The notes: generated by a model not told the origin, from the letters alone. DNA of 32,000 bases from Geotalea daltonii FRC-32 (GCF_000022265.1 NC_011979.1:150001-182000), one strand, 5' to 3'; numbered from the stretch's first letter, positions 1,284-20,246 are shown. Made by a program: numbers and translations.

Positions 1284-1299
1284 AGCACGGCATATGCCA
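1284..1299 (-). promoter_or_regulatory. sigma54 (-24/-12) promoter for the MFS gene
   Basis: The minus strand reads TGGCATATGCCGTGCT. GG and GC sit at the spacing of the consensus TGGCAC-N5-TTGCW. It lies about 110 nt upstream of the MFS ATG, faces away from the XylR-type activator gene, and is nearly identical to the element at 19644-19659. Confidence 0.65.
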
Positions 1300-1690: not shown

Positions 1691-3448
1691 ATGTACAAGC
1701 AAAGCGGCAAAACCAGAACTGTCAGCGACACTAATACCGGCGACCTGCGTGCGCGTTTGCGTTTTTGTGCCGAAACCGGCCAGATTTGGCTGCATGAACA
1801 TCGCATGCTTCTCGTTCATGCTGAAGCCCAGGCCTCGCTGCGGCGGGAATTGATCGATACACTCGGCATGGACCGGGCGCGGGGGCTTTTGACTCGCATG
1901 GGCTATGCGGCAGGGATGCGTGACTTTGAACTGGCCCGTACACGTCCCGGGAGCGACGGCGATGTGGAAGCATTCATGGCTGGTCCGGAACTGCACATGC
2001 TGGAGGGAATCGCCCGTTCCACCATCATCTCGCTGGAATACGACCGCAATGCCGGGAGTTTTTATGCCGACATCATCTGGGAATATTCTTGGGAAAGTGA
2101 ATGGCACAGGCACTACTATGGAAACTACTCCGAGCCGGTCTGCTGGAGCCAGGTCGGCTATGCCTGTGCCTATGCTTCTGCCTTCATGGGGCACCCGATC
2201 CTTTACAAGGAGGTGGAGTGTTCCGGCATGGGGGAGAGCCATTGCCGCATCATCGGCAAACCGCTGGAGGAGTGGGATGATGCCTCAGAATACAGCCGCT
2301 TCTTCGTAAAGGAATCCATCGCCGAACAGCTCATCGACCTGCAGACCCAGGTGGTGCAACTACGCTCGGCAATAGGGGAAAAAGAAAAAATCCCCTCTGA
2401 TATCATCGGCAACTCTCCCGCCTTCCGAGCTGCCTATGATTTGTGCCAACAGGCCGCTGCTACGCAGATTACCGTGCTGCTCCTGGGGGAGACAGGGTCG
2501 GGAAAAGAAGTATTCGCCCGCGCTCTGCACAACAGGGGAGCCCGGCGTAACGAGTCCTTCATTGCCATCAACTGCGCTGCTATTCCCCAGGACCTGGTGG
2601 AGTCGGAATTGTTCGGCGTGGAGAAGGGTGCCTATACCGGCGCACTGACGGCCCGTCCCGGCCGTTTTGAACGGGCCCATGAGGGGACCCTCTTCCTCGA
2701 CGAAATCGGCGATTTGCCCCTCTCGGCACAGGCAAAACTCCTGCGTGTCCTGCAGGAAGGGGAAATAGAGCGGCTGGGTGACGACAAGGTGCGGAAGATC
2801 GACGTGCGGCTGGTGGCGGCTACCAACGTTGACCTGAAGCAGATGGTCAAGGAAGGGAAATTCCGCTCAGATCTATACTACCGGCTCAATGCCTTCCAGA
2901 TAGAAATCCCGCCTTTGCGCAAACGAAAGGAGGATATCCCCATCATTGCCAATCGCTACCTGGAAAAATATTCAGCCGTTCATGGGAAGAAGATCAACGG
3001 CTTCACCGACAAGGCCATGCGGGCGCTGTTGGCCTATCCATGGCCGGGCAACATCCGGGAACTTATGAATATGGTCGAGCGGGGGGTGATCCTGGCCCCT
3101 AACGGCAGCCGAATCGAGCTGGAACAGATGTTCTCGGGGAGCGCCGATAGTCCAGGCCCGGAGTTCGGGCTCAACAGCAACGGCAGTCTCGGTATGAACC
3201 AGACAGAAAGCGAAACGAATCTCCAGGATGAGGTCTTGAACGGCAGCATGACGTTGGACCAGGCCGAAGCCGCACTGATTGAAGCAGCCGTGAAGAAAGC
3301 AAACGGCAACCTTTCCGCCGCCGCCCGGGTGCTCGGTGTGACCAGGCCGCAACTGGCCTATCGTCTAAAGCGCCTGAATGGCACTGAATCACAACCTTCA
3401 GGCGTTACCCTCTCATCATCCGACGAATTGGCGGCAGGTAATCTGTAA
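1691..3448 (+). CDS. XylR/DmpR-type sigma54-dependent transcriptional activator (aromatic-effector sensing N-domain + V4R, AAA+, HTH)
   Basis: 585-aa ORF. N-terminal XylR_N/V4R-like blocks ([38 protein letters not shown]). AAA+ core with Walker A GETGSGKE, a GAYTGA loop and [10 protein letters not shown]-terminal HTH NLSAAARVLGVTRPQLAYRLKRL. AGGA RBS at 1681-1684. Confidence 0.9.
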   Translation: MYKQSGKTRTVSDTNTGDLRARLRFCAETGQIWLHEHRMLLVHAEAQASLRRELIDTLGMDRARGLLTRMGYAAGMRDFELARTRPGSDGDVEAFMAGPELHMLEGIARSTIISLEYDRNAGSFYADIIWEYSWESEWHRHYYGNYSEPVCWSQVGYACAYASAFMGHPILYKEVECSGMGESHCRIIGKPLEEWDDASEYSRFFVKESIAEQLIDLQTQVVQLRSAIGEKEKIPSDIIGNSPAFRAAYDLCQQAAATQITVLLLGETGSGKEVFARALHNRGARRNESFIAINCAAIPQDLVESELFGVEKGAYTGALTARPGRFERAHEGTLFLDEIGDLPLSAQAKLLRVLQEGEIERLGDDKVRKIDVRLVAATNVDLKQMVKEGKFRSDLYYRLNAFQIEIPPLRKRKEDIPIIANRYLEKYSAVHGKKINGFTDKAMRALLAYPWPGNIRELMNMVERGVILAPNGSRIELEQMFSGSADSPGPEFGLNSNGSLGMNQTESETNLQDEVLNGSMTLDQAEAALIEAAVKKANGNLSAAARVLGVTRPQLAYRLKRLNGTESQPSGVTLSSSDELAAGNL

Positions 3449-3951
3449 TGAAAGACACTCTGGGCATGGGGGTACAACGGTACCTGCGGGACCATCACGT
3501 TGCAAACCTGTCCACCTGTGGCCATGACGGCCCTTGGGGGGCAGCGATCTTCTATGCGAACGACGGCTATACTCTTTACTTTCTGTCATCGCCCACCAGC
3601 CGGCATTGTCTCGATCTGACGGACAATCCATGCGTTGCCGTGACTATCCAGGAGAACCAGGTGGATTGGCTGGCAATCAAAGGGGTGCAGATCCAGGGGA
3701 TAGCCAGCAAGATTTCCGGTGCGGAAGAAGAAAAAGCCCGCAGCCTCTACGGAGAGAAATTTCCCCTGGTCGGTTTGCTGGCAAAGGCTCCGGCAGCCAT
3801 TGTTCAGGCCATGGCCAAGGTGAGCTGGTACAAGGTCGTTCCCCACCGCCTTTATTTTATCGACAATTCTCTTGGACTGGGCCACCGGGACGAACTTGCC
3901 TTAGGTCTTCCGGATGGCGGGGGGAAATCCGGAGGCAATGATGGTGCTTGA
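3448..3951 (+). CDS. pyridoxamine-5'-phosphate-oxidase-like FMN-binding split-barrel protein
   Basis: 167-aa ORF. Its ATG overlaps the activator stop (TAATG at 3446-3450). Family-like blocks: HVANLSTCGHDGPWGAAIFYANDGYTLYFLSSPTSRHCLDLTDNPCVAVTI and KVSWYKVVPHRLYFIDN. Confidence 0.7.
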   Translation: MKDTLGMGVQRYLRDHHVANLSTCGHDGPWGAAIFYANDGYTLYFLSSPTSRHCLDLTDNPCVAVTIQENQVDWLAIKGVQIQGIASKISGAEEEKARSLYGEKFPLVGLLAKAPAAIVQAMAKVSWYKVVPHRLYFIDNSLGLGHRDELALGLPDGGGKSGGNDGA

Positions 3952-4981
3952 AGGACGCCTGGCCGACGGACTGGGGCGGGGTGCGGCGTTTACCAAGCTC
4001 GACTGGGTGCGTTGCCGGCTCATGGATACCGTCGGCATCGATCCCTTTCCCGGGACTCTCAATCTGACCCTTGATGATGACAGTAATCTGGCTCGCTGGC
4101 GACAGTGGCAGGATATGCCTGGCCATTCCCTGGAGCCGCCCGATACCGGCTTTTGCCGGGCACGCTGCTATCCGGTGCAGGTGATGGGGCATATCCCTGC
4201 CGCAGTGCTGTTGCCCGAAGTTGCAGACTATCCACGCAACAAGGTGGAACTGGTTGCAGCGCTGCCGATCCGCAGGCATCTTGCCCTGGCCCCGGCAGCG
4301 CAGCTCAGTGTGGAGTTGTGCCGCCCCCTTGCCGTTAAAGCGGTATTATTCGATCTGGACGGCACACTGGTCGATTCGGTCGAGGCATATATCCAGGTGG
4401 CGCAGGTTGCGGCCGCACCCTTCGGCCTCCAGGTGACGGAGGAGCAGGTGCGAACGGCGCTGGCCAACGGCAGCAGCTTCTGGCGAGGCGCCGTGCCCAA
4501 GGACCGGAGTGATGTGGATGCGGTCGTCAAAGCCATAGCCGCCCAGGCTTACCGGGAGTGGCCGCGAATCCTTCAGGAACATAGCAGGCTGTTTGAAGGG
4601 ATCATGCAGACCCTCGATGCGCTGAGGAGCCTAGGGATCAAGCTCGGCATCGTCAGCGGCGCGCGACAGGAAGTACTGGAACTGCTAAGGCCGGATAGGA
4701 TCCTGGATCGGTTCGACGCAGTGGTGCTCGGCCCTGATGTGCCCACGAGAAAGCCTGATCCCGAAGGCATCCTGAAATGCCTCGGGATGCTCAATGTCAC
4801 ACCTGCTGCCGCCCTGTACGTGGGAGATGCGCCGATAGACATCATGGCAAGCCGTGCAGCCGGCGTCTATGCCGTGGGTGTACTAACCGGGGCAGGCGAC
4901 AGCGCCTCCCTATCGTCCCAATACCCGGACCGCCTGATCTCCTCCCATATGAATCTGCCCGCCATAGTAGAAGCCGCCTGA
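3938..4981 (+). CDS. fusion protein: archaeal-type (CTP-dependent, DUF120/RibK) riboflavin kinase domain + HAD-superfamily phosphatase domain
   Basis: The ORF is open from 3914; the ATG at 3938 follows GGAGG (3931-3935) and overlaps the upstream stop (3949-3951). N-domain: EGRLADGLGRGAAF...PFPGTLNLTLD, recalled as matching M. jannaschii RibK EGEVVSGLGEGRYF...PYEGTLNLKLD. C-domain HAD motifs: VLFDLDGTLVDS, GIVSGA, K...YVGDAPIDI. Confidence 0.75.
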   Translation: MMVLEGRLADGLGRGAAFTKLDWVRCRLMDTVGIDPFPGTLNLTLDDDSNLARWRQWQDMPGHSLEPPDTGFCRARCYPVQVMGHIPAAVLLPEVADYPRNKVELVAALPIRRHLALAPAAQLSVELCRPLAVKAVLFDLDGTLVDSVEAYIQVAQVAAAPFGLQVTEEQVRTALANGSSFWRGAVPKDRSDVDAVVKAIAAQAYREWPRILQEHSRLFEGIMQTLDALRSLGIKLGIVSGARQEVLELLRPDRILDRFDAVVLGPDVPTRKPDPEGILKCLGMLNVTPAAALYVGDAPIDIMASRAAGVYAVGVLTGAGDSASLSSQYPDRLISSHMNLPAIVEAA

Positions 4982-5395: not shown

Positions 5396-5416
5396 AAAAA
5401 AAGACCGTCTACGGCC
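5396..5416 (-). terminator. short hairpin + T7 run overlapping the stop of the YafK-like gene
   Basis: The minus strand reads GGCCG-TAGA-CGGTC (5 bp including one G-U pair) followed by TTTTTTT. Confidence 0.4.
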
Positions 5417-6380: not shown

Positions 6381-6413
6381 GTCCAGACCCCTAGACCACC
6401 TTGTTAGATAAAG

Positions 6414-10796: not shown

Positions 10797-11366
10797 TCAG
10801 GGAGAAAACCCGGCCAGCTTCAACTCTGCCCAAGCCAGGCGGGTGCCTGTTTCGGTGAAGAACCAGCTGTCAATCTGCGACGTGATCCATTGCCTGTACG
10901 GACCCTTCTCCTGACGGAACCGTTCCATGTCTATTGCCAGGCCGGTTGCGGTGCAACGGAAAAGCTTGTCGGCATCCTTGACGATCTTGTCGCTGTCTGA
11001 AATCGCCTGAATGCGGGAATCATGACCGTCGATGATATGGAGAATCTCGATGGTCTTTTGCGGATTATAGTCCAGGCGGCTCAAGATACCCCTCGCCAGT
11101 TTTACCCCTTCCACTTCGTGAATCCGTCGCAGATCCGGATCGAAACCGGGGCCGAACGCTTTCAGTTGCAGCTCTTCCGTGAGCTTTATCCACCCCAGAT
11201 CATGACAGAGTATAGCCGGTATGACAACCTCAGGGTCTCCTGGTTCATCCTCAAGCAACCGCCAGGCAAAACCATGGGAAATCTCCACGTGGATGTCGTT
11301 CTTGCGGGTATTCAGATACGGCTTGGCCAGGGCGTATATTTTTTCGTAGATCGGTAATTTTACCAT
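10797..11366 (-). CDS. HD-domain metal-dependent phosphohydrolase
   Basis: The ORF is open to 11396; the ATG at 11364-11366 (MVKLPIYEKIY...) is the likelier start. Motifs: H..ILCHDLGW, HIIDGHDS, VKDADKL. Confidence 0.7.
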   Translation of the reverse strand: MVKLPIYEKIYALAKPYLNTRKNDIHVEISHGFAWRLLEDEPGDPEVVIPAILCHDLGWIKLTEELQLKAFGPGFDPDLRRIHEVEGVKLARGILSRLDYNPQKTIEILHIIDGHDSRIQAISDSDKIVKDADKLFRCTATGLAIDMERFRQEKGPYRQWITSQIDSWFFTETGTRLAWAELKLAGFSP

Positions 11367-11411
11367 GCACTCACCCGTGATCTGTAATTGCGACAACGGT
11401 TGTTGAGGAAA

Positions 11412-11441
11412 GGTTCCCCCTCAAAGGGATTTTTGAGGGGG
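11412..11441 (-). terminator. 12-bp perfect hairpin (C5/G5 repeat family) downstream of the OMP gene
   Basis: TTCCCCCTCAAA-GGGATT-TTTGAGGGGGAA lies about 50 nt past the OMP stop. The U run is weak (CCTTTCCTC). It has the same style as the hairpins at 27699-27787. Confidence 0.4.
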
Positions 11442-11489
11442 AACGTGGTTCAAATCAGGCCTGACGGGTCCTTTCCTGAAGGCAATTGC

Positions 11490-12422
11490 CTAAAAAGCAT
11501 AGGAAATCTTGAACTGGGTCTGGTTGCCGGTGGCGATGTTGCGGGCGCCATACTCCCAGTACTGCTTGAGGGTCATGGTGAATGGCCCCTGTTTCGGCCA
11601 ATACTTGATCCCGACGCCTATCCCTCCGACCCGGCTTTTATCGCTGGTTTTAGAGACACCGTTCACTTCATCTTCGGTGGTCTGCCAGTAGTTGTAACCG
11701 ACCAGGCCGCCAGTCAGGCCGTTCTTCAGGCCATAGCCCAATGCCCAGTCCATGTGGAACTCCTGGCCAGGGTCAGTGCTCGTGTCGCTGTTTCTGGTGT
11801 TGAAGTCGTACATTAGCTTGGCAGAGATGTCGAAGCCTTCCTTCAGGTAAGAGACGGCCAGAACCGGTTCGAAGGTCCAGATGTTCTTGGAGAGGAGGGT
11901 GGTGGCAGGCCGATCCTTGTCATAATTGCCGGTAGGTGCCCACATATCCAGGGCAAAAACCGCGTGGAGCTCCGGACTGAAGTGCCAGCCGAGGACCAGG
12001 GGACTGAAGATGATGTCGCCAATCCCCTTGTCCCTGGAATCAAAATTGAGTGGAGGGATGGCTGCCGAGTCACTCTTGATGTCGGCACTGTAAAAGGGGA
12101 GAAATGCCTGGGCACCCCAACTGGCTCCCAACACTTTATAAGGGCTCACGTAGATGAGGCGTGGTACCTCGGCCACCACGTCGGCCTTGAAATTGGCGGG
12201 CAGGCCGTTCCCCGAATTGTCCCTGAGGCTGCTCTTCTGGGCCAGGATCAGGTAGTTGACCAGATATACACCGGGGGGAGGGAGTGCCCCCACGGCAAAG
12301 TCCTCGACTCCATTGGGGTAGTGCTGTCCACCTCCTGCCCAGCACGGGCCGGCGTACAGCAGAGAAAAAACGGCAAGAAATCTGAGCATGTGGAAAACGT
12401 GTTTATATGCTGATGCCATCAT
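11490..12422 (-). CDS. outer-membrane beta-barrel of the 'MetA-pathway of phenol degradation' transporter family
   Basis: The ATG at 12420-12422 follows AAGAGGA. Signal peptide MMASAYKHVFHMLRFLAVFSLLYAGPCWA. Family-like HYPNGVEDFAVGALPPPGVY block. Alternating beta-strand pattern with a C-terminal ...KISYAF (terminal Phe). Confidence 0.75.
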   Translation of the reverse strand: MMASAYKHVFHMLRFLAVFSLLYAGPCWAGGGQHYPNGVEDFAVGALPPPGVYLVNYLILAQKSSLRDNSGNGLPANFKADVVAEVPRLIYVSPYKVLGASWGAQAFLPFYSADIKSDSAAIPPLNFDSRDKGIGDIIFSPLVLGWHFSPELHAVFALDMWAPTGNYDKDRPATTLLSKNIWTFEPVLAVSYLKEGFDISAKLMYDFNTRNSDTSTDPGQEFHMDWALGYGLKNGLTGGLVGYNYWQTTEDEVNGVSKTSDKSRVGGIGVGIKYWPKQGPFTMTLKQYWEYGARNIATGNQTQFKISYAF

Positions 12423-12482
12423 TGTAGTCCTCTTGATTGATATTGCGCCTGGTTGAATAGTGCATTTGCTCAAATAGCAGTC

Positions 12483-13088
12483 TCACGTGGCGATTCGCAG
12501 TGTTTCCCTCAGTTGTTCCTTTCGGTCATGCCCGTTCCAGCGCGTGAAAAGGTTATGCTCGATGCCCACCTGGTCCAGGGCCTTGCCGATGCTCTGATGG
12601 ATGATGTCCATGATCGACTCGGGCTTGTGGTAGAACGCCGGCATCGGCGGCAGTAGTATTGCCCCGCAGTCGGCAGCGCGCGACATGAGGTCCAGGTGTC
12701 CCTTGTGCAATGGAGTTTCACGCACCATCAGCACCAGCGGTCGCCGCTCCTTGAGGGTAACGTCGGCGGCCCGCACCACCAGGTTATAGGTGAAGGAGTT
12801 GGCGATGGAAGAAAGGGTTTTTACCGTGCAGGGGGCGACGATCATGCCGCTGGTGCGGAACGAACCGCTGGCTACCGAGGCGCCGATGTCGTTGTTGTCA
12901 TAGACCACATCCGCCAGGGACTTGACATCCTCAAGTGTGTACGAGGTTTCGATCTCCAGATTCTTGGCCGCCGCGTCACTGACGATCAGGTGGGTTTCCT
13001 GACCGAGGCTTTTCAGCACGCTCAGCATCTCCACCCCATAGATCACGCCTGTTGCGCCGGTGATTGCCACTACCAATGGAAGGCTCAT
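12483..13088 (-). CDS. ubiX: UbiX-type flavin prenyltransferase (prFMN synthase)
   Basis: The ATG at 13086-13088 follows AAGGAG. Sequence: MSLPLVVAITGATGVIYGVEML...LIVSDAA...GMIVAPCTVKTLSSIANS...RPLVLMVRETPLH...LLPPMPAFYHKP. Confidence 0.9.
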   Translation of the reverse strand: MSLPLVVAITGATGVIYGVEMLSVLKSLGQETHLIVSDAAAKNLEIETSYTLEDVKSLADVVYDNNDIGASVASGSFRTSGMIVAPCTVKTLSSIANSFTYNLVVRAADVTLKERRPLVLMVRETPLHKGHLDLMSRAADCGAILLPPMPAFYHKPESIMDIIHQSIGKALDQVGIEHNLFTRWNGHDRKEQLRETLRIAT

Positions 13089-13142
13089 GATATTGCTCCT
13101 TTTTGCATGAATTACCGGCTGGGTCTGGCAATCCGGCAATTC

Positions 13143-13613
13143 CTATTGCGAGGCCTGAACGGAAGTCTGGCGCCGCGGTGCTTTTCCGAGGGTTCCTGCT
13201 TCCAGGCTGCGGCACAGATGGGCGGCCAGCTGGAAGATTTCGGTGGCGGAGATGATCCCCACCACCACGCCATTTTCCATAACCGGAAACTGGGCTACCC
13301 GCAGTTTCTTGCCGTAATCCAGGCAATGCTCCATGGTGTCGTCCGCATTGACCGTCGCCGGATTGCGGACCATGATGTCCCTGACCCTGAGCCGGTTGAT
13401 GAAAAAGCTGACTTCATCCGGGTTCTGGGTACGCGTCACATAGTGCCCCATGCGCATCATGTTGTGACGGGTCACCAGACCGCGCAACTGTCCATTATCC
13501 ACGACCAGCAACGAATTCAGGTTATTGTCGATAAGTACCCGCTTTGCTTCCGAAGCCAGCATGTCGCTGGGAATCGTCAGGGGGTCGTTTTGCATCCAAT
13601 TGCGCACGATCAT
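13143..13613 (-). CDS. stand-alone CBS-pair protein (PpsC-like stimulatory subunit candidate)
   Basis: The ATG at 13611-13613 follows AAGGAGAG. Two CBS repeats: MIVRNWMQNDPLTIPSDMLASEAKRVLIDNNLNSLLVVDNGQLRGLVT and VRDIMVRNPATVNADDTMEHCLDYGKKLRVAQFPVMENGVVVGIIS. Confidence 0.75.
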   Translation of the reverse strand: MIVRNWMQNDPLTIPSDMLASEAKRVLIDNNLNSLLVVDNGQLRGLVTRHNMMRMGHYVTRTQNPDEVSFFINRLRVRDIMVRNPATVNADDTMEHCLDYGKKLRVAQFPVMENGVVVGIISATEIFQLAAHLCRSLEAGTLGKAPRRQTSVQASQ

Positions 13614-13642
13614 CGCACACTCTCCTTTTAAACAGGTTTTGC

Positions 13643-14899
13643 TCACTGGGCCACTGCTCTTGCCGGAGATCCCTCATACAACCGCACGAACTCATCGACG
13701 GCAGCTCGGGCAAATTCCGAGGTGTACAGGTGCAGATCTACCTCTTTGATCCGGTGGGGTTCGGCGACTTTCTCCTTCAGGCGGGCGACAAAGGCGGCAT
13801 CGGCAGCGGGGTCGTAAATGATCCTCCCCTTGATGTCCTGGGATGACCAGCCCTGCAAGGGAATGAGAAAGGTCCATTCTCCCCGAGCCTGGTTGAGCCG
13901 ATCGGCGATGACATCTGCGGCCTGACGCAGCTCCTCGGCGGTGGTACGCACCTGAACCCTCAGGGAGTCCTGCACGTATTGGGGCCGATCCTTCGTCTTC
14001 TCCAGCATATCCGGCCGGCCGCCGTAGGAGAGGATATCCAGACCGCAGGGGGCCAGCACCATGGGAATACCGGCCTCCACGGCTGCCATCAACCGATCGG
14101 GGCCGGGGTCACGGTTGCCATTGAAGAGGTTTTCGACGATGCCGCCGGTACAGATGTCCAGCACCCCGTGAAAGGCGCCGGCGCGGATCATATCCTCCAT
14201 GGCTTTGTCCCCTTTGCCCTGAGCGTGGCAGACAATAGGGGTGAAGCCGGCCTCATTCAGCATGTCGAGGGCGGCCTGCACTGCCATTTCGCCGAAGCCG
14301 AAGGAGGATATGGCAACGCAGGGTTTGTCGAACTGGATGTCCGTGCCCTGGGTCATCTCCACCATGCCGCAGATGGCGCCGACGGCGTTGGTGATCTGGG
14401 CCTTGAGCAGCGGATTCATTTTGACGATGTCGAGCACCGTGTGGTGCATGGTTATGTCGTGGGTACCAACGTATTTGCCAACGTAGACCGGATGCGCCGC
14501 CATGGGGGATGCCATGAGCTTGGGGATGCCAAAGGGCACACCTTTCATGACACTGGTGCCGACCAGGGAGGACGTTCCGCCGCCAACGCCAAATACCCCC
14601 TGGACTTTTCCTGCTTCAAGCATGTCGCCGACGATGGCGCTGGCGCCCCTGATCTGGTTTTCCATGGCGCGGTCCCGATCGGAGCGATAGCATTCCCTCA
14701 CCGCTTCAATGGTCATGCCGCCGCGTTCGGCGACCTCCTCGCAGGTTATGTCCCCTTGGAACGGCGGGGGTTCTTCCATGCTGAAATCGAGGAAATAGGC
14801 CTGGTGCCCCCGCCCTTCGATGAGATGTTTGACAAAGATAATATCCTCACCCCGAGTATCCAGGTTACAGATGATGACGATACCCTTTTTCTGGGCCAT
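13643..14899 (-). CDS. UPF0261 / Tm-1-like ATP-binding domain protein
   Basis: 418-aa ORF with a GGGAGGA RBS. Blocks: IVIICNLDTRGEDIIFVKHLIEGRGHQAYFLDFS, GVFGVGGGTSSLVGTSVM..FGIPKLMAS, VCHAQGKGDKAMEDMI..GVLDICTGGIVENL, GIPMVLAPCGLD. Confidence 0.7.
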   Translation of the reverse strand: MAQKKGIVIICNLDTRGEDIIFVKHLIEGRGHQAYFLDFSMEEPPPFQGDITCEEVAERGGMTIEAVRECYRSDRDRAMENQIRGASAIVGDMLEAGKVQGVFGVGGGTSSLVGTSVMKGVPFGIPKLMASPMAAHPVYVGKYVGTHDITMHHTVLDIVKMNPLLKAQITNAVGAICGMVEMTQGTDIQFDKPCVAISSFGFGEMAVQAALDMLNEAGFTPIVCHAQGKGDKAMEDMIRAGAFHGVLDICTGGIVENLFNGNRDPGPDRLMAAVEAGIPMVLAPCGLDILSYGGRPDMLEKTKDRPQYVQDSLRVQVRTTAEELRQAADVIADRLNQARGEWTFLIPLQGWSSQDIKGRIIYDPAADAAFVARLKEKVAEPHRIKEVDLHLYTSEFARAAVDEFVRLYEGSPARAVAQ

Positions 14900-14966: not shown

Positions 14967-16469
14967 TCACTTTTTCTTCACTTCGGGCCGGGTGAGGCGC
15001 GGGATCATTTCGGCCACCGGGCTTACCCCGCTGAAGCCATACTCGTTCCAACGATCGGAAACCTTCTGCAGTACCGCCCGATCCATGAAGATCTCGTTCG
15101 GCTTGTTTTTCCACTCGTAGGGGGTGGTGGCATCCATGATGATGCGGCTGACCACATCGCGGGCCTCGATGGGCAGACCGGGATCGAGCGGGGTGGAGCG
15201 GCCGCGGTTGATGACCTGGACCGAGCGCTTCGGATCGAAACGGGTGGCCAGCGCCCACCAGACGCGGTCCATGTCGTCTGCGGCGATGTCATGGTCGACG
15301 ATGATGATTCCCTTGACGCCGTAGTGGCCGGTCGTGCTGCCGTTGATGGCATCGGCCACGTGGTTCGAGTGCCCCGGATACATCTGCTTTACCGAGGCGA
15401 TGACCCAGAAACGGCCGGTGGCCGCAGCCGGGAAGTAGACGCTCTGGATTCCCGGAACCTTCATGGTTTCCAAATCGTGCCACAATGTTGCCGTGCGGTT
15501 GATGGACTGGACCATGTGGGTGTCGTTGATCGGTTTGCCGACCGTGGTTGACCAGAAAATCGGCTTGGTGCGATGGATGATCCGTTTGACGCGGATCACC
15601 GGCTTGGGATAGTCCTTCATCTTGTTGCCCGAGTAATAGCCGGTGTACTCGCCAAACGGCCCTTCCTCCATCAACTCCTCCGGGTCCATCCATCCCTCGA
15701 CAATGATCTCGGCGTTGGCCGGCAGGGTCAGTCCGGTAAGATCGGATTTGAAAACCTCGATAGGACGGCCGCGCAGCGCGCCCCCCACGTCATACTCATC
15801 TGTCTGGGCGCTGACCAGGGTGGAGGAGGCCAGAAACAGTATCGGATCACCCCCCACCACGTAAGCGACGGGCATCTTCTCGCCCCGTTCCTGGTACTTC
15901 TTCATGTGAAAATCGCCGTGCTTGCCGCTGATGATCTGCGAGCCGAGGATATTCTTGCCCAGAATCTGCGAACGATAGGTGCCCAGGTTGGTCCAGCCGG
16001 TATCCGGGTCCTGGGTCACCAGGTAACCGGAGGTACCGAAGAAACGGCCGCCGTCATCGGGATAGAACCAGGGAGCCGGGAAATTTTCCAGATCTACTGC
16101 TTCTTCCGGAATGATGTTTTCCATTACCGGCGGGTTCTTGACGAAGGTGGGCTTGATCATCTGCTTGGTGGTCAGCTCCATCCATTTCCGGGAAAGCTGG
16201 CACATGGTGAGGGACGGGTCCTGCTCCAGGCAGATGGCGATACGTTCGGGGGTGGTGAAGGCACTGGTGAAGACCGGGATAGTGTGCCCTTTGACATTCT
16301 CATAGAGCAATGCCGGACCCTTCTGCTCTTCGTTCACCTTGGATACGTGGGCGAGTTCGAATTTCCAGTCTACTTCGGCCTTGACGCGATGCATGACCCC
16401 TTGGGCTTCCAGGGCTGCGATATAACTGCGGATGTCGTTGATGGGTTTTACCTTTGGATTTGTGCTCAT
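14967..16469 (-). CDS. UbiD-family prFMN-dependent (de)carboxylase, PpcB-like; the only UbiD paralogue in the operon
   Basis: 500-aa ORF with an AGGAGGAAGT RBS. Blocks: FPAPWFYPDDGGRFFGT, MPVAYVVGGDP, DEYDVGGALRGRPIEV, EGPFGEYTGYYS, VKGIIIVDHDI. Confidence 0.9.
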   Translation of the reverse strand: MSTNPKVKPINDIRSYIAALEAQGVMHRVKAEVDWKFELAHVSKVNEEQKGPALLYENVKGHTIPVFTSAFTTPERIAICLEQDPSLTMCQLSRKWMELTTKQMIKPTFVKNPPVMENIIPEEAVDLENFPAPWFYPDDGGRFFGTSGYLVTQDPDTGWTNLGTYRSQILGKNILGSQIISGKHGDFHMKKYQERGEKMPVAYVVGGDPILFLASSTLVSAQTDEYDVGGALRGRPIEVFKSDLTGLTLPANAEIIVEGWMDPEELMEEGPFGEYTGYYSGNKMKDYPKPVIRVKRIIHRTKPIFWSTTVGKPINDTHMVQSINRTATLWHDLETMKVPGIQSVYFPAAATGRFWVIASVKQMYPGHSNHVADAINGSTTGHYGVKGIIIVDHDIAADDMDRVWWALATRFDPKRSVQVINRGRSTPLDPGLPIEARDVVSRIIMDATTPYEWKNKPNEIFMDRAVLQKVSDRWNEYGFSGVSPVAEMIPRLTRPEVKKK

Positions 16470-16523: not shown

Positions 16524-17657
16524 TCAGGTCAGGCGTTTTCCTTCGAGCATGCTGGCCAATATGTAATCCATTGCCGAAGCGCCTCCCTTGACGGCACCTG
16601 GCGGCTGCTGTTTCTGGCTCCAGACCGTCTCCGGCCGCGCCTGCAGAATGAAGATGTTGCCGCCGAAGGGAAGGTCCTTGTCCACCGCCCATTCGATGTC
16701 CATGGGGCGGCCATAATGCTTTTCGATCAGCTTGCCCATCCGGGCCAGCTCGGTGATTTCGTCGTCCATCAACGACTGCACCTTCTGCCGCTCGAAGGGC
16801 ACCTCTATGGCGCGGGATACCTGTGTCTTCTGGTCGACGGTGTAGTAGATGTCCTTCTGGGAAATGGTCCGCTCCAAGATGTCCAGGGTGATCTTGTTGA
16901 CGACGAAGTTGTCGGGGGTTACCTCCCCTGAGACCACCGATTCGCCGAAACCGTAATTGGAGTCGATGACGATCACCGAACGGTCGCCGTTGCCCGGATG
17001 AAGCGTGAACATCACCCCTGCGGTAAACGAGTTGGCCATTTTCTGCACGCCGACGCTGATGGCCACCTGCTCGTCCGCGTACCCCTGGTTGATCCGGTAG
17101 GCGATGGCCCGCCCCGTATAGAGGCTGGAGATGCAGCGGCGCATGTTGTGCAGAACCTCATCTGCCCCACGGACCCAGAGATAGGTATCCTGCTGGCCGG
17201 CGAAACTGGCCCCCGGCAGGTCCTCGGCCGTGGCGCTGGAGCGCACAGCAACCGGTACTGCCGGCAGACAGCTGCGTACTGCCAGCTTGCGGTATTTTTC
17301 TGCCACCAGATCTTCAATTTCCGTGGAAAACGGCTGAGCCTCGATCATTTCTCGTATCCCGGCGCTGGCATTCTCCAGTGCATCCATGTCCTGGGAGTCA
17401 ATGCCTTTCAGCCGGGCCTGCACTTCACGGTCGATGCCCGCATCGGCCATAAAGTGCCGATATCCCTCGGTGGTGAGGGCAAAACCTGGAGGCACGCGGA
17501 CTCCCGCATTGATCAACTCGCCGAGGGAAGAGCATTTACCGCCGACGAGCGGCACCGAATCCTTCCTGCATTCCTCCAACCAGCAGACCATGGGCAGGTC
17601 CTTGTTTGCCGTATTCCCAGACTTCCCCATATTTGCTTTCGCCGTGTCAGTCATCAT
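16524..17657 (-). CDS. ppsB: phenylphosphate-synthase beta-like subunit (PEP-synthase/PPDK N-terminal ATP-grasp domain)
   Basis: The ORF is open to 17672; the ATG at 17655-17657 follows AAAGGAG. Blocks: VPLVGGKCSSLGELI, VAVRSSATAEDLPGASFAGQQDTYL, GVMFTLHP, IDSNYGFGESVVSGEVTPD, DIEWAVD. Confidence 0.8.
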   Translation of the reverse strand: MMTDTAKANMGKSGNTANKDLPMVCWLEECRKDSVPLVGGKCSSLGELINAGVRVPPGFALTTEGYRHFMADAGIDREVQARLKGIDSQDMDALENASAGIREMIEAQPFSTEIEDLVAEKYRKLAVRSCLPAVPVAVRSSATAEDLPGASFAGQQDTYLWVRGADEVLHNMRRCISSLYTGRAIAYRINQGYADEQVAISVGVQKMANSFTAGVMFTLHPGNGDRSVIVIDSNYGFGESVVSGEVTPDNFVVNKITLDILERTISQKDIYYTVDQKTQVSRAIEVPFERQKVQSLMDDEITELARMGKLIEKHYGRPMDIEWAVDKDLPFGGNIFILQARPETVWSQKQQPPGAVKGGASAMDYILASMLEGKRLT

Positions 17658-17681
17658 CAAATCTCCTTTCATCGAAATAAC

Positions 17682-19511
17682 TCAGCGATCGATTGTGACG
17701 AGGCCGGTGGAACCATCGACCCGGAGCATCATGCCGGTCCTGATGATCTTCGTCCCGAGCCCGGTGCCGACCACCGCCGGCAAGCCGTATTCACGGCAGA
17801 CTATTGCCGCATGGCTCATGACACCCCCCACATCGGTAACGGCGGCCTTGATTTTGGCAAAGGCAGGCGCCCAGGAAGGCGAAGTGGTGGGTGCAACCAG
17901 GATTTCCCCCTCCTGCAACAGGCGAATATCGTCCGCATTGCGACAGACACGCGCCTTGCCTTCCACAATGCCGGGACTGCCGGCGAATCCTTTCAGGGCG
18001 GTGATGCTGTCCGGATCGGTGGCGTCCTGCACCTCTGACCAATCGGTGATGGACGAGTTGGTTACCCCCCAGAGCACGATGGTGAAAGGCTCCTTGATTA
18101 CTTCAGGGGCAGTGCCGATTGCCGGCGGCGGGCTCCACTGCTGGAATTTCTCCATGACCCCCTTGCGCCAGGCGATTTCCTTCGGCCACACCGCGGTGCC
18201 GCGCGGCTTGACTCCGGTTGCCCAGGCGGTGACCATGTCCCATAAGGCCTGCTTTATTTCGTCGCGGCGCAGATACCAGACATCTTCCACATCCTCGATC
18301 ATGCCGTGTTCTTTCATGATGGCTGCCACTTCCCGCATCTTTTTCCAGAAGACAGTATGGAACCAGTGCTCCACGTAGAACAGATGGTTCTCCACATAGG
18401 GGAAGACGGTCTTGGCCGTGCCGAGCAGGTCATCGAAGGTCTTGCGGTCCTCGTCGGAGGTGATCAGGTCGCGGTACTCGGCGGTGATCCGGTCCCGTTC
18501 GGCACGCACCTTTTCCACCGGCCGTTCGATGTCGATGCCCTGCTTAAGCTGGTTAATGTAGGTGGCGATCCCGGACAGGGGAATATTCAGGTCGTCGTTC
18601 CATGATTTGTCACTGTGCGACCAGCCGGTGCCGGTGGAGACGTGGAACCATGGGTAACGGGCCTCTTCCAGGGCAGCGAGCCATTCCTTTCCCTTCGGGT
18701 TTTTCTTTAGCTCCGCCTTGGCATCCGTCCACTCCGTGCGCGAAGTCAGGATCTGGTCAATCCCCAGTTGGACGGCTTTCTTCGCCAGCTTCTTCAATTC
18801 ATCGTCGGACCGGTACATGAGCACGTCGACACCGGCAATCATCTGGGTGACCCGTTGCAACGGAATGCTCGGAAAGAGCTTTTGCACGAAGTCGAGGAAG
18901 AAGACATAGGCGGCATAGCCCAGGTTGAGGAATTCGAAGTGGTACTGCCAGCACTGGATGCCCAGGTTGATCAGGTCGTCATAGGCCTTGAGCAGGTGAA
19001 AGCCCTTGGATTCGCCGATTCCCTCGGTTACCACGGTGATGTCTTCCAGGTCGGGGAGGCGGGGGATCGGCAATTCTTCGATCTCCTTGATGATCGCCTT
19101 CATCTTTACTTCCCATTTGGCTTCCAGCTCAGCCCAGTTCTTGTAGTAAAAACCGGCACGCTCCATGAAATTCGGGACCCTGCTGCCTACCTCCTCCGGG
19201 TCCATGACCGGCACCGGCGAGATATAGACATAGCCGTTGATGATCCGGTGGTCGACGCCGCGCACCGGTGGTACCTGAAAGATGCGGTTGTTGTACTGGG
19301 ACAAGCCCAGGTACCAGGCCTCATCCCAGATGGTGTCGAAGGGATAGATGGCTTCGGGATAATGGAGTCCATCGTAGAACCAGAATGCCTGTTCTTCGTA
19401 AGCCTTGCGTTCAGGGTCGTCGGTGACGAACTTGTACTGGTACGGATACATCCTTTCCCAACCTTCTGTCCCGGGAATGTCCTTAACCTCGTGTGGCTTT
19501 GGAAACTTCAT
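17682..19511 (-). CDS. ppsA: phenylphosphate-synthase alpha-like subunit (large substrate-binding N-domain + PEP-utilizer mobile His domain)
   Basis: The ORF is open to 19559; the ATG at 19509-19511 follows GGGGGAGA. N-terminus MKFPKPHEVKDIPGTEGWERMYPYQYKF.... C-terminal swivel domain EGEILVAPTTSPSWAPAF..IKAAVTDVGGVMSHAAIVCREYGLPAVVG. Confidence 0.8.
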   Translation of the reverse strand: MKFPKPHEVKDIPGTEGWERMYPYQYKFVTDDPERKAYEEQAFWFYDGLHYPEAIYPFDTIWDEAWYLGLSQYNNRIFQVPPVRGVDHRIINGYVYISPVPVMDPEEVGSRVPNFMERAGFYYKNWAELEAKWEVKMKAIIKEIEELPIPRLPDLEDITVVTEGIGESKGFHLLKAYDDLINLGIQCWQYHFEFLNLGYAAYVFFLDFVQKLFPSIPLQRVTQMIAGVDVLMYRSDDELKKLAKKAVQLGIDQILTSRTEWTDAKAELKKNPKGKEWLAALEEARYPWFHVSTGTGWSHSDKSWNDDLNIPLSGIATYINQLKQGIDIERPVEKVRAERDRITAEYRDLITSDEDRKTFDDLLGTAKTVFPYVENHLFYVEHWFHTVFWKKMREVAAIMKEHGMIEDVEDVWYLRRDEIKQALWDMVTAWATGVKPRGTAVWPKEIAWRKGVMEKFQQWSPPPAIGTAPEVIKEPFTIVLWGVTNSSITDWSEVQDATDPDSITALKGFAGSPGIVEGKARVCRNADDIRLLQEGEILVAPTTSPSWAPAFAKIKAAVTDVGGVMSHAAIVCREYGLPAVVGTGLGTKIIRTGMMLRVDGSTGLVTIDR

Positions 19512-19643
19512 CGCGTGTCTCCCCCCATTGTCGTATAGTTTAGTGGATCGGAACGACAAATTTGATAATCTACAAACCCTGTTTTATAAAATAAGCATTG
19601 TCCTCATGAGCTCTGAATGCTAATCAACGTTTTCAGTTAAAAG

Positions 19644-19659
19644 AGCACCGAATATGCCA
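19644..19659 (-). promoter_or_regulatory. sigma54 (-24/-12) promoter of the pps-UbiD operon
   Basis: The minus strand reads TGGCATATTCGGTGCT with correct GG/GC spacing, about 130 nt upstream of the RBS-supported ppsA ATG. It differs from the MFS promoter at only 2 positions of the 16-nt core (3 when one flanking nt each side is counted). Confidence 0.65.
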
Positions 19660-20056: not shown

Positions 20057-20246
20057 AACTATGTTTTATGAATAAGCAGATATAATCGTTTTGCAGTCAA
20101 GAATTGAATCTGCAGTCGATGGTGATGTCCGGCTGCAATGCTGTTTTTAGGCACCTTTTCCAAATCGTTGCTGGTATGACAATGTTATAAATAATGTTGA
20201 AAAAGAATGGTATCTGCGGCTACCGGCAGATGGAGAGGTGACAATT

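What the first reader, a model, noticed from the sequence alone, without database searches (positions are those of the whole stretch)
3448..4981. Flavin module co-transcribed with the aromatic activator: PNPOx-like protein plus archaeal-type riboflavin kinase fused to a HAD phosphatase
Seen: overlaps at 3446-3450 (TAATG) and 3938-3951 couple three genes: activator 1, an FMN-binding split-barrel protein and a two-domain protein. The N-terminal ~125 aa of that protein look like CTP-dependent RibK/DUF120 (EGRLADGLGRGAAF, PFPGTLNLTLD). Its C-terminal ~220 aa are a capped HAD phosphatase (LFDLDGTLVDS, IVSGA, YVGDAPIDI). Established: UbiX makes prFMN from FMNH2 and dimethylallyl monophosphate for UbiD enzymes. 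The source of DMAP and the oxidative maturation of prFMN in strict anaerobes are not settled. Thauera-type phenylphosphate carboxylase needs a HAD-type delta subunit, which the operon at 10.8-19.6 kb lacks. Inference, three options. (a) A dedicated FMN/prFMN supply and maturation set. (b) The HAD domain makes DMAP from DMAPP. (c) It is the missing phenylphosphate phosphatase. A kinase+phosphatase fusion also mirrors plant FMN-hydrolase/riboflavin-kinase, but here with an archaeal-type kinase.
Basis: partly seen in the sequence, partly recalled or inferred. Interest (0 to 1): 0.65.

Follow-up and report, generated by a model that had tools for sequence, protein, structure and literature searches.

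The report
Riboflavin-kinase/phosphatase fusion beside phenol carboxylase genes
Next to the genes an iron-reducing anaerobe uses to carboxylate phenol lie a flavin-binding-type protein and an uncharacterised fusion of an archaeal-type riboflavin kinase with a phosphatase, and this pairing recurs in many gene orders, making them candidates for supplying the modified flavin cofactor that the carboxylase needs.

Summary
A XylR-type sigma-54 activator (1691-3448), a YhbP/PNPOx-like split-barrel protein (3448-3951) and a two-domain protein (true start 3941, end 4981) are linked by overlapping stop and start codons. The two-domain protein has an N-terminal PF01982 riboflavin-kinase domain whose CTP-binding, flavin-binding and catalytic-Glu residues are conserved. 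Its C-terminal domain is a capped HAD-IA phosphatase with all four motifs invariant.

The fusion family is large and uncharacterised, and databases call it "HAD-IA hydrolase" or "phosphoglycolate phosphatase". One clade plus two separate lineages sit beside pps/ppcB(UbiD)/ubiX phenol clusters in five gene orders, usually behind one or two PNPOx-like genes. Unfused kinase and HAD gene pairs occur in other phyla, once directly beside a UbiD that is not PpcB-like.

Three results weaken it. Most fusions (Betaproteobacteria-like) show no UbiD/UbiX context. The G. metallireducens ortholog has lost the kinase domain. The HAD is not the capless type I recall for PpcD.

The best reading is an accessory flavin/prFMN supply module. 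The HAD substrate (DMAPP, a riboflavin precursor, FMN or phenylphosphate) is unresolved. This is a new variant of known kinds and moderately interesting.

The parts
1691..3448 (+). XylR/DmpR-type sigma-54 activator (XylR_N, V4R, AAA+, HTH_8); first gene of the translationally coupled trio
   Evidence: Pfam. Orthologs precede PNPOx + fusion in L081, L082, L003, L142 and L150.
3448..3951 (+). YhbP/PNPOx-like split-barrel protein (167 aa), predicted flavin or other cofactor binder
   Evidence: PF01243 E=1.7e-10. NCBIfam YhbP scores 65 bits, below the cutoff of 176. AF2 model has pLDDT 84 and a split barrel; the best Foldseek PDB hits are HugZ-type heme-binding proteins and uncharacterised PNPOx-like proteins. 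Homologs of 63-77% identity occur in G. metallireducens and other Geobacter species.
3931..3935 (+). GGAGG ribosome-binding site, 5 nt upstream of the ATG at 3941, inside the end of the PNPOx-like gene
   Evidence: Sequence. Homolog length of 346-347 aa.
3941..4324 (+). N-terminal domain of the fusion: archaeal-type (CTP-dependent) riboflavin kinase, PF01982
   Evidence: PF01982 E=1e-25. It aligns over almost its whole length to MJ0056 and T. acidophilum RbkR. CTP-site residues G10, G12, T39, L40, N41 and R111 and flavin-site residues F17, F71, P92, Y97 and E103 (proposed base) are conserved (PMC5397151).
4325..4981 (+). C-terminal domain of the fusion: C1-capped HAD-IA phosphatase
   Evidence: HAD_2 E=6e-34. 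DxDGT (138-142), S239, K271 and GDxxxD (295-300) are invariant in 16 homologs. The best NCBIfam matches (PGP, PpaX) are all far below their cutoffs. The closest PDB entries are generic PGP-like HADs.
12483..13139 (-). UbiX flavin prenyltransferase, the consumer of FMNH2 and DMAP
   Evidence: NF004685, 252 bits against a cutoff of 188.
14967..16469 (-). UbiD-family PpcB-like carboxylase, the prFMN-dependent enzyme
   Evidence: TIGR02724 phenyl_P_beta, 542 bits against a cutoff of 469.
16524..19559 (-). PpsB-like (16524-17672) and PpsA-like (17682-19559) phenylphosphate synthase subunits
   Evidence: PPDK_N and PEP-utilizers domains; NF006152, 1392 bits.
10797..14899 (-). Rest of the operon: HD (10797-11396), Phenol_MetA_deg outer-membrane channel (11490-12473), CBS/PpsC-like (13143-13646) and UPF0261 (13643-14899). 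This range also encloses ubiX (12483-13139), which is listed separately.
   Evidence: Pfam. The same set is syntenic in L082, L094, L003 and L135.
19644..19659 (-). Sigma-54-like -24/-12 element (TGGCAT-N5-GTGCT) about 85 nt upstream of ppsA
   Evidence: Pattern search. The number of matches in the window is no higher than in shuffles, so this rests on position only.
20238..22010 (+). Second XylR-type activator, divergent from the pps operon
   Evidence: Pfam. It is 72% identical to activator 1.

Best explanation
The trio is a regulator gene followed by two accessory cofactor genes that serve the UbiX/UbiD (PpcB-type) phenylphosphate carboxylase encoded 6 kb away.

Proposed roles:
- The N-domain of the fusion phosphorylates riboflavin to FMN, probably with CTP, adding FMN supply for UbiX.
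- The fused HAD-IA domain is an active phosphatase working in the same pathway. Candidate reactions, in my order of preference: DMAPP to DMAP, dephosphorylation of the riboflavin precursor 5-amino-6-ribitylamino-uracil 5'-phosphate (ARPP), or FMN hydrolysis for homeostasis.
- The YhbP-like split-barrel protein binds a flavin species (FMN, FMNH2 or prFMN). It would act as reductase, carrier or maturase, playing the part that the flavin-reductase-like PhdC/YclD or LpdD play for other UbiD enzymes.

Shown: domain identities, conserved catalytic residues, gene overlaps, and recurrent linkage to pps/ubiD/ubiX.
Inferred: co-transcription, enzymatic activities, every substrate, and the link to prFMN.
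For: 1. Domains and conserved active-site residues.

2. Linkage to pps/ubiD/ubiX persists through rearrangements:
- A: XylR > PNPOx > fusion;
- B: XylR > PNPOx > PNPOx2 > fusion, divergent from the pps operon;
- C: the fusion is the last gene of ppsB-ubiD-UPF0261-NUDIX-CBS-ubiX-MetA-ack-pta-NUDIX-(PNPOx2)-fusion;
- D: fusion > ubiD > HAD-IIA > ppsA > ppsB > NUDIX > ubiX, in a lineage only 50% identical;
- E: fusion, then XylR on the opposite strand, then ppsA, inside the otherwise unlinked clade.
Of 23 loci with at least 4 kb on both sides, 10 are linked. My rough estimate for chance is a few percent at most.

3. The kinase-HAD partnership also exists as separate adjacent genes in Bacillota, Chloroflexota and Thermodesulfobacteriota MAGs and in an unplaced metagenome contig. 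This argues for one shared pathway. In L004 the order is HAD - kinase - UbiD. That UbiD is a generic VdcC-like type, no pps gene was found in the 13.7 kb held, and so a UbiD-general (cofactor) role fits better than a phenylphosphate-specific one.

4. Dedicated flavin-binding accessory proteins for prFMN (PhdC, YclD, LpdD) are established. The oxidant for prFMN maturation in strict anaerobes is stated to be unknown (PMC13040415).

5. P-O-P cleavage occurs in this HAD-IA neighbourhood: PpaX and the BT2127 pyrophosphatase are among the matches.
Against: - Most fusion-family members (61 of the 84 fusion-bearing loci held) have no UbiX, UbiD, PNPOx or XylR within the DNA held. Their conserved neighbours are rubrerythrin-like, NUDIX-MBL, isochorismatase and URO-D genes.
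- The G. metallireducens ortholog lacks the kinase domain yet keeps PNPOx + HAD in its phenol cluster. FMN supply by this kinase is therefore not required there.
- NUDIX genes in architectures C and D could already make DMAP (PMC12359138).
- The PNPOx-like protein's nearest structures are heme-binding or uncharacterised proteins, and PhdC is not among the top 50.
- No FMN riboswitch was found in the window or in 17 related loci.
- In the window the two genes ride on the regulator's transcript, not on the catabolic operon.
Confidence: 0.45

Rival explanations
1. The HAD domain is the functional equivalent of the missing delta subunit (PpcD). It dephosphorylates phenylphosphate at the UbiD-type carboxylase, and the kinase domain is an evolutionary passenger.
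For: The eight pps/ppcB operon genes scanned with Pfam include no HAD. G. metallireducens keeps exactly the HAD part, 74% identical, next to its phenol cluster after losing the kinase domain. The main linked clade is tied to pps genes specifically.
Against: The domain is a C1-capped HAD-IA, with about 95 residues between motifs I and II. Its best family matches are PGP and PpaX, and PpcD (TIGR02726) is not among the 25 best of 33 NCBIfam hits. By my recollection PpcD is a small capless KdsC-like HAD. The same fusion, 60-65% identical with identical invariant residues, is common where no pps gene is nearby. Unfused HAD + kinase pairs sit beside a UbiD that is not PpcB-like, with no pps gene found. 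Lineage D has an extra HAD-IIA directly after ubiD; by my recollection HAD-IIA is the p-nitrophenyl-phosphatase type, a better delta candidate. A riboflavin kinase fused to a phenylphosphate phosphatase has no pathway logic.
Confidence: 0.15
2. It is a general flavin-homeostasis enzyme: riboflavin kinase plus FMN hydrolase or ARPP phosphatase, a bacterial counterpart of plant FMN-hydrolase/riboflavin-kinase. It has no specific role in prFMN. Its presence in aromatic clusters reflects general flavin demand or co-transfer on a catabolic island.
For: Most family members are in unrelated contexts. Kinase-HAD pairing exists without a UbiD nearby in L006 and L175. The plant AtFMN/FHy precedent for a kinase + HAD fusion, and the reported FMN and ARPP phosphatase activities of HAD-IA enzymes, are both from my own knowledge. 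NUDIX genes may cover DMAP supply.
Against: Linkage to pps/ubiD/ubiX is kept through five rearranged architectures and arises on three branches of the tree. It sits inside the catabolic operon in architectures C and D. No FMN riboswitch was found and no rib gene was noticed next to it, though rib genes were not searched for specifically.
Confidence: 0.3
3. The two proteins belong to the regulatory circuit. Being co-transcribed with the activator, they make, destroy or sense its effector, for example by hydrolysing phenylphosphate or a related signal, or they protect the cell from reactive aromatic intermediates.
For: They are translationally coupled to the XylR-type gene in the window and in L081, L082, L003, L142 and L150. 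In G. metallireducens a PAS-SpoIIE phosphatase and a second activator lie in the same string of genes.
Against: In architectures C and D the fusion is in the catabolic operon, away from the regulator. The riboflavin-kinase active site is conserved. The family is widespread without any XylR neighbour.
Confidence: 0.05

Closest known systems
Archaeal CTP-dependent riboflavin kinase RibK (MJ0056) and the kinase domain of RbkR (PF01982)
   Same: Same Pfam domain, aligned over almost its whole length. The Gly-x-Gly loop, TLN motif, Leu/Ile-Arg, flavin-contacting Phe/Phe/Pro/Tyr and the proposed catalytic Glu are all conserved.
   Different: It is bacterial, whereas PMC5397151 states RibK orthologs are absent from Bacteria. 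It is fused to a HAD phosphatase instead of standing alone or carrying a winged-helix DNA-binding domain. The 'absolutely conserved' Tyr115 aligns to Val23, with Trp22 adjacent. The Glu of the GxGEG loop is Arg, Gln or Lys in the fusion family. It scores far below the NCBIfam equivalog cutoffs (42.5 against 168).
Plant bifunctional FMN hydrolase / riboflavin kinase (AtFMN/FHy)
   Same: One polypeptide joins a HAD phosphatase and a riboflavin kinase (my own knowledge of the plant enzyme).
   Different: By my recollection the plant kinase domain is the unrelated eukaryotic/bacterial flavokinase fold, and the domain order is HAD then kinase. Here an archaeal-type kinase comes first. The resemblance is convergent, not homologous. 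The plant enzyme has no link to UbiD/UbiX.
prFMN accessory proteins PhdC/YclD (maturase) and LpdD (prFMNH2 chaperone)
   Same: They are small flavin-binding accessory proteins encoded with ubiX/ubiD. PhdC is a distant member of the HpaC-like flavin reductases (PMC13040415); by my recollection that fold is related to the PNPOx split barrel. The PNPOx-like genes here are likewise tightly linked to a UbiX/UbiD cluster.
   Different: No sequence hit to any PDB chain named PhdC. PhdC is not in the top 50 Foldseek matches. I saw no C-terminal ExW motif when reading the sequence, but I did not align it to PhdC. The host is a strict anaerobe, for which no oxidant is known.
Phenylphosphate carboxylase delta subunit PpcD (Thauera/Aromatoleum)
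   Same: A HAD-superfamily phosphatase encoded with phenylphosphate carboxylation genes.
   Different: The HAD here has a C1 cap (subfamily IA), is fused to a kinase, and is not in the ppc operon in the window. PpcD's model is not among its best NCBIfam matches.
HAD-IA phosphoglycolate phosphatase (Gph) and pyrophosphatase PpaX, the names given in databases
   Same: The best-scoring NCBIfam and PDB relatives, with the same fold and motifs.
   Different: Scores are far below the equivalog cutoffs (111 against 180 for TIGR01449; 95 against 218 for PpaX). The database name 'phosphoglycolate phosphatase' is therefore unsupported.

Membership tests
CTP-dependent riboflavin kinase (RibK, PF01982) | Pfam domain match above the gathering score over the whole domain | tested here: met
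   90.5 bits against a cutoff of 25; profile positions 3-120 of 121.
CTP-dependent riboflavin kinase (RibK, PF01982) | CTP-site residues (taRbkR Gly102, Gly104, Gly106, Thr131, Leu132, Asn133, Leu202, Arg203) | tested here: met
   These map to G10, G12, G14, T39, L40, N41, I110 and R111 in the alignment. G10, G12, T39 and R111 are invariant and N41 nearly so in 16 homologs. G14 is Ala in most homologs. Residue list from PMC5397151.
CTP-dependent riboflavin kinase (RibK, PF01982) | Flavin-site residues and catalytic base (Tyr109, Tyr115, Phe165, Pro185, Tyr190, Glu195) | tested here: inconclusive
   F17, F71, P92, Y97 and E103 are conserved or invariant. Tyr115, said to be absolutely conserved, aligns to Val23 with Trp22 next to it.
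CTP-dependent riboflavin kinase (RibK, PF01982) | NCBIfam equivalog score (NF040694 ribK_Meth; PRK14165) | tested here: not met
   42.5 against 168 bits, and 60.7 against 279 bits.
CTP-dependent riboflavin kinase (RibK, PF01982) | CTP-dependent phosphorylation of riboflavin | not testable with these tools
   Needs an enzyme assay.
HAD superfamily, subfamily IA (C1-capped phosphatases) | Motifs I-IV (DxDGT, S/T, K, GDxxxD) and a cap inserted between motifs I and II | tested here: met
   D138/D140/G141/T142, S239, K271 and G295/D296/D300 are invariant. About 95 residues lie between motifs I and II. HAD_2 scores 118 bits.
Phosphoglycolate phosphatase (TIGR01449 / PRK13222) | Equivalog score cutoff | tested here: not met
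   111 against 180 bits, and 113 against 225 bits.
Phenylphosphate carboxylase delta subunit PpcD (TIGR02726) | Best family match to the PpcD model, and small capless HAD architecture (the latter from my recollection) | tested here: not met
Eight weaker hits were not displayed, so a weak match cannot be excluded.
Phenylphosphate carboxylase delta subunit PpcD (TIGR02726) | Phenylphosphate phosphatase activity in complex with the UbiD-type subunits | not testable with these tools
   Needs biochemistry.
PNPOx-like / YhbP (UPF0306) split-barrel proteins | PF01243 match above the gathering score, and a split-barrel fold | tested here: met
   41.7 bits against 28.1. AF2 pLDDT 84; 188 Foldseek PDB matches at E<=0.001, the top 50 listed all split-barrel (PNPOx-like, HugZ-type or related) proteins.
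PNPOx-like / YhbP (UPF0306) split-barrel proteins | YhbP equivalog score (NF002900) | tested here: not met
   65.2 against 176 bits.
PhdC/YclD prFMN maturases | Detectable sequence or specific structural similarity to PhdC; conserved Glu47/Glu136 and the ExW motif | tested here: not met
   No PDB sequence hit at E<=0.01 with the single protein. The profile search at E<=10 lists no chain named PhdC. PhdC is absent from the top 50 Foldseek hits. I saw no ExW motif on reading the sequence, but I did not align it to PhdC. I could not verify that the PhdC entry is in the library.
Plant FMN hydrolase / riboflavin kinase (AtFMN/FHy) | Flavokinase-type (PF01687) kinase domain C-terminal to the HAD domain | tested here: not met
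   The kinase domain is PF01982 and N-terminal. No Flavokinase hit in Pfam.

The most novel reading that the evidence does not exclude
The one or two PNPOx-like split-barrel proteins and the kinase-HAD fusion together form an oxygen-independent prFMN supply and maturation pathway for UbiD-type carboxylases in strict anaerobes. The kinase would make FMN. The HAD would clip DMAPP to DMAP for UbiX. The split-barrel proteins would reduce FMN and/or oxidise prFMNH2 to the active iminium form with a non-oxygen acceptor. That would answer how anaerobes mature prFMN.
Probability: 0.15. Interest if true: 0.85.

Novelty: new variant of a known kind. Interest (0 to 1): 0.6.

Why it matters
UbiD/UbiX (de)carboxylases underlie anaerobic breakdown of phenol and, as proposed in the literature, benzene, naphthalene and phthalate. 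They are also wanted for biocatalytic CO2 fixation, but many cannot be obtained in active form. Two points are open. The physiological source of DMAP is one. The other is how prFMNH2 is matured without oxygen; PMC13040415 says the oxidant in strict anaerobes is unclear.

This locus and its relatives provide a concrete, conserved and uncharacterised gene set to test: two PNPOx-like proteins and a kinase-HAD fusion, with NUDIX genes in some lineages.

It also shows that archaeal-type riboflavin kinase domains are widespread in Bacteria, contrary to a published statement. Hundreds of database proteins named 'phosphoglycolate phosphatase' or 'HAD-IA hydrolase' carry an unrecognised kinase domain.

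Tried and rejected
- The genome-contig scan with the full-length alignment was swamped by the generic HAD motif AVLFD[IL]DGT. Only about 6 of 80 loci were informative. I repeated the scan on metagenome contigs with a kinase-domain-only alignment, and that worked.
- PDB sequence searches with the PNPOx-like protein, single sequence and profile, gave only weak generic PNPOx-like hits and no PhdC.
- Foldseek gave the generic split-barrel fold only, so it says nothing about the ligand.
- PDB and NCBIfam matches of the HAD domain are generic PGP, beta-PGM and PpaX relatives. No substrate can be inferred from them.
- Scans for an FMN riboswitch in the window and 17 related loci were negative.
- Literature searches for a kinase/HAD/UbiD link, for a DMAP phosphatase and for DUF120 in bacteria found nothing relevant.
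- The G. metallireducens phenol paper (PMC2698347) is not held. What I say about its content rests on citations in PMC5946492 and on my memory.
- The conserved neighbours of the unlinked fusion clade (rubrerythrin-like, NUDIX-MBL, isochorismatase, URO-D) may simply reflect synteny among related genomes. I did not build on them.
- The sigma-54 pattern search gave no more matches than shuffled sequence. Only the position of the site upstream of ppsA is suggestive.
- I considered that the fusion ORF starts at 3914. I rejected this on homolog lengths and ribosome-binding-site spacing.

Full report
**1. What is in the sequence**

Three plus-strand ORFs run head to tail. The first, 1691-3448, encodes a 585-aa XylR/DmpR-type sigma-54 activator with XylR_N, V4R, Sigma54_activat and HTH_8 domains. 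The second, 3448-3951, encodes a 167-aa PNPOx_N protein (E=1.7e-10). The third is listed from 3914 and ends at 4981.

The raw sequence shows the TAATG overlap at 3446-3450. It shows the TGA of the second gene at 3949-3951, and in-frame ATGs at 3914, 3938 and 3941. Homologs are 346-347 aa and a GGAGG lies at 3931-3935. I therefore place the start at 3941, which gives an 11-nt overlap. The scan found no sigma-70-like promoter and no plus-strand terminator between the genes.

The third protein has PF01982 (CTP-dependent riboflavin kinase, E=1e-25) followed by a HAD-IA domain (HAD_2, E=6e-34).

**2. Are the domains likely to be active?**

The kinase domain aligns over almost its whole length with M. 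jannaschii RibK and T. acidophilum RbkR. I mapped the residues listed for RbkR in PMC5397151 onto that alignment and onto a 16-sequence family alignment.
- CTP site: G10, G12, T39 and R111 are invariant, N41 nearly so, and L40 (Leu/Val) and I110 are conservatively kept.
- Flavin site: F17, F71, P92 and Y97 are present.
- The proposed catalytic base, Glu195, corresponds to E103, which is invariant.

There are two departures. Tyr115, called absolutely conserved in archaea, aligns with Val23, with an invariant Trp22 beside it. The Glu in the GxGEG loop is Arg, Gln or Lys in the fusion family, but it is kept in unfused bacterial homologs.

In the HAD domain all four catalytic motifs are invariant, and a roughly 95-residue cap lies between motifs I and II.

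NCBIfam equivalog cutoffs are missed by a wide margin for RibK, phosphoglycolate phosphatase and PpaX. The database names 'phosphoglycolate phosphatase' and 'HAD-IA hydrolase' are therefore uninformative.

**3. The neighbourhood**

The minus-strand operon at 10797-19559 encodes the following:
- an HD-domain protein;
- a Phenol_MetA_deg outer-membrane channel;
- UbiX;
- a CBS protein (PpsC-like);
- UPF0261;
- a UbiD that passes the phenylphosphate carboxylase beta model (542 bits against 469);
- PpsB-like and PpsA-like proteins.

A second XylR-type activator is divergent from this operon. A sigma-54-like element lies about 85 nt upstream of ppsA, but the pattern is no more frequent in the window than in shuffled sequence. 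None of the operon genes is a HAD, and tblastn with NUDIX and HAD-IIA queries found nothing in the window.

The closest relatives of the trio are in Geotalea sp. SG265 (85-88% identity) and Geobacter argillaceus. The source is therefore a Geobacteraceae.

**4. How widespread is the fusion, and what lies next to it?**

The top 120 homologs all carry both domains at 60-99% identity. They include Geobacter, Geotalea and many Betaproteobacteria/Burkholderiales MAGs. A metagenome scan seeded with the kinase domain alone returned 80 loci. In 77 the HAD follows in frame, and the other three are cut by a contig end.

I searched all loci by tblastn with the window's proteins and some further queries. 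Two situations emerged.

(i) Linked to phenol genes. Of the 80 loci, 17 carry pps/ubiD/ubiX/XylR/PNPOx genes. Of 23 loci with at least 4 kb on both sides, 10 do. Five gene orders occur:
- A: XylR > PNPOx > fusion (window, L081, L082, L095; L162, a 1.8-kb contig, shows only PNPOx > fusion).
- B: XylR > PNPOx > second PNPOx-like gene > fusion. In L003, L142 and L150 this unit is divergent from the pps-ubiD-UPF0261-CBS-ubiX operon. In L152 and L168 the operon lies downstream on the opposite strand.
- C: the fusion is the last gene of ppsB-ubiD-UPF0261-NUDIX-CBS-ubiX-MetA-ack-pta-NUDIX-(PNPOx2)-fusion, with PNPOx and XylR on the other strand (L135, L092, L093, L130, L148).
- D: fusion > ubiD > HAD-IIA > ppsA > ppsB > NUDIX > ubiX, in a lineage only 50% identical (L173/L174).
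- E: fusion, then XylR on the opposite strand, then ppsA (L133).

In a neighbour-joining tree, types A-C form one clade, D is a deep separate branch, and E lies inside the unlinked clade. Linkage kept through this many rearrangements is stronger evidence than static synteny.

(ii) Unlinked. The Betaproteobacteria-like majority has no UbiX, UbiD, PNPOx or XylR within the DNA held. Recurrent neighbours are a rubrerythrin-like gene, a NUDIX-MBL gene, an isochorismatase and a URO-D-like gene. These may only reflect relatedness of the genomes.

**5. Unfused pairs**

Stand-alone bacterial PF01982 proteins exist. In four of the seven distinct contexts I annotated, a HAD-IA gene is adjacent or one small ORF away:
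- L004 (Bacillota): PAC_bac - HAD - kinase - UbiD.
- L006: isochorismatase - HAD - kinase.
- L088: isochorismatase - HAD - 86-aa ORF - kinase, with a UbiD 7 kb upstream.
- L175 (Chloroflexota): 86-aa ORF - kinase - HAD.

The L004 UbiD is a generic VdcC-like type, not PpcB-like, and no pps gene was found there. The kinase-HAD partnership is thus conserved both fused and unfused across several phyla. This argues that the two activities belong to one pathway, and that the pathway is tied to UbiD enzymes in general rather than to phenylphosphate.

**6. G. metallireducens**

In GS-15 the string XylR - PAS/SpoIIE - XylR - PNPOx is followed by a 239-aa HAD-only protein. It is 74% identical to the window's HAD domain. 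The string lies next to the HD-MetA-ack-ubiX-CBS-UPF0261-ubiD cluster.

In a tree of HAD domains this protein nests inside the Geobacteraceae fusions, and it keeps the linker sequence ELC..LAV.AVLFDLDG. The kinase domain was therefore lost secondarily. In that lineage the conserved core is PNPOx + HAD, and the kinase is dispensable.

**7. The PNPOx-like protein**

It has 63-77% identical homologs in several Geobacter species and in Desulfuromonadaceae and Desulfuromonadales MAGs. The AlphaFold model (pLDDT 84) is a split barrel. Its best PDB matches are HugZ-type heme-binding proteins and uncharacterised PNPOx-like proteins.

The literature now describes dedicated prFMN accessory proteins. PhdC and YclD are flavin-reductase-like maturases and LpdD is a prFMNH2 chaperone. 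The same paper states that the physiological oxidant in strict anaerobes is unclear (PMC13040415).

I found no specific sequence or structural similarity between the window protein and PhdC. Any relation is by analogy and genomic position only. The second PNPOx-like gene seen in architectures B and C resembles PPOX-class F420/FMN oxidoreductases weakly.

**8.

(a) A dedicated FMN/prFMN supply and maturation set. This is the best-supported general reading. It rests on the linkage data, the unfused pairs beside a UbiD that is not PpcB-like, and the precedent of PhdC, YclD and LpdD.

(b) The HAD makes DMAP from DMAPP. This is chemically plausible, because pyrophosphatases PpaX and BT2127 are among the nearest HAD-IA relatives. 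However, NUDIX genes sit in the same operons in architectures C and D. NUDIX is the enzyme class known to make DMAP from DMAPP in E. coli (PMC12359138). The HAD would then be redundant for this step.

(c) The missing phenylphosphate phosphatase. G. metallireducens keeping only the HAD is in its favour. Against it:
- the HAD is capped, subfamily IA;
- PpcD is not among its best family matches;
- the same fusion is abundant away from pps genes;
- lineage D carries an extra HAD-IIA right after ubiD;
- a riboflavin kinase fused to such an enzyme has no pathway logic.

HAD-IA enzymes catalyse these reactions in E. coli and plants (my own knowledge). The fusion would then join two riboflavin-to-FMN pathway steps. 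No FMN riboswitch supports this in the window or in 17 loci.

**9. Verdict**

A substantial, multiply rearranged subset of the family is embedded in phenylphosphate/UbiD/UbiX clusters together with PNPOx-like genes, but most of the family is not.

The most likely function is accessory flavin/prFMN provisioning. The HAD substrate and the PNPOx ligand remain unknown.

The architecture of an archaeal-type kinase fused to HAD-IA has not been described in the papers I could search. It also contradicts the published statement that RibK orthologs are absent from Bacteria. I rate it a new variant of known kinds, interest 0.6.

Noticed in passing
window 8260-8336 (-): A c-di-GMP-I riboswitch (RF01051, 43.2 bits against a gathering score of 35) lies just upstream of the YkuD-type L,D-transpeptidase-like ORF at 6871-8190 (-). 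A second YkuD-like ORF lies at 5409-6512 (-). The YkuD assignment comes from synteny with L081; I did not run Pfam on the window ORFs.
   Followed up: no
window 13643-14899 (-); also L082, L094, L003, L135: A UPF0261 (Tm-1-like, function unknown) gene is a constant member of the Geobacter-type pps/ppcB operon, between ubiD and the CBS gene. G. metallireducens has a second, 26%-identical paralog next to its HAD-only gene. Its role in phenylphosphate carboxylation is unknown to me.
   Followed up: partly
window 25665-27651 (+); L082 6870-7946; L092 4084-6068; L135 7401-9374: Acetate kinase, and often phosphotransacetylase, genes lie inside the pps/ubiD/ubiX operon in related loci. In the window they follow a dCache histidine kinase and a sigma-54 response regulator. 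This hints that acetyl phosphate or another acyl or aryl phosphate takes part in this type of phenol carboxylation.
   Followed up: partly
L094 10500-11219 (G. metallireducens GS-15, CP000148.1): The ortholog of the fusion is HAD-only (239 aa, 74% identical to the HAD domain). It retains the linker of the lost kinase domain and nests inside the fusion clade, so the domain was lost recently.
   Followed up: yes
L174 7906-8724 and 11908-12432: In a divergent phenol cluster, a HAD-IIA gene sits directly after ubiD, and a NUDIX gene sits immediately upstream of ubiX, overlapping the longest ubiX ORF. By my recollection HAD-IIA is the p-nitrophenyl-phosphatase/PGP_euk type. The first is a candidate delta-like phenylphosphate phosphatase and the second a candidate DMAP-forming enzyme.
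   Followed up: partly
L093 160-759 and 5857-6426; L135 3713-4303 and 9442-9975: Two NUDIX hydrolase genes are embedded in the pps/ubiD/ubiX operon of one lineage, one of them immediately upstream of PNPOx2 or the fusion. The window has no NUDIX homolog.
   Followed up: partly
L088 7735-7995; L175 3023-3283: An 86-aa ORF directly precedes the unfused kinase gene in two unrelated contigs. The L088 copy has no Pfam match. I did not test whether the two are homologous, or what they do.
   Followed up: no
L004 2159-2569: A PAC_bac gene (bacterial proteasome-assembly-chaperone-like, PF21758) precedes HAD - kinase - UbiD in a Bacillota MAG. It could be another small UbiD accessory or chaperone protein.
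   Followed up: no
L006 134-688; L088 6396-6950; six unlinked-clade loci, e.g. L165 11470-12249: An isochorismatase-family gene recurs next to HAD + kinase in unfused pairs, and about 1 kb downstream of the fusion in some Betaproteobacteria-like loci. This is unexplained.
   Followed up: partly
window 8760-10700 (+); L094 6670-8280; L093 8843-10414: The related loci carry a PAS-SpoIIE (PP2C phosphatase) protein among the XylR-type regulators. By its sequence, the window ORF at 8760-10700 looks like the same kind of protein. I did not run Pfam on it. This suggests a partner-switching or phospho-relay layer on top of the sigma-54 activators.
   Followed up: no
window 1284-1299 (-) and 19644-19659 (-): Two near-identical sigma-54-like elements occur (TGGCATATGCCGTGCT and TGGCATATTCGGTGCT). 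The second is upstream of ppsA. The first faces the truncated minus-strand gene at the window start, probably an MFS transporter as in L081. The pattern count is no higher than in shuffles.
   Followed up: no
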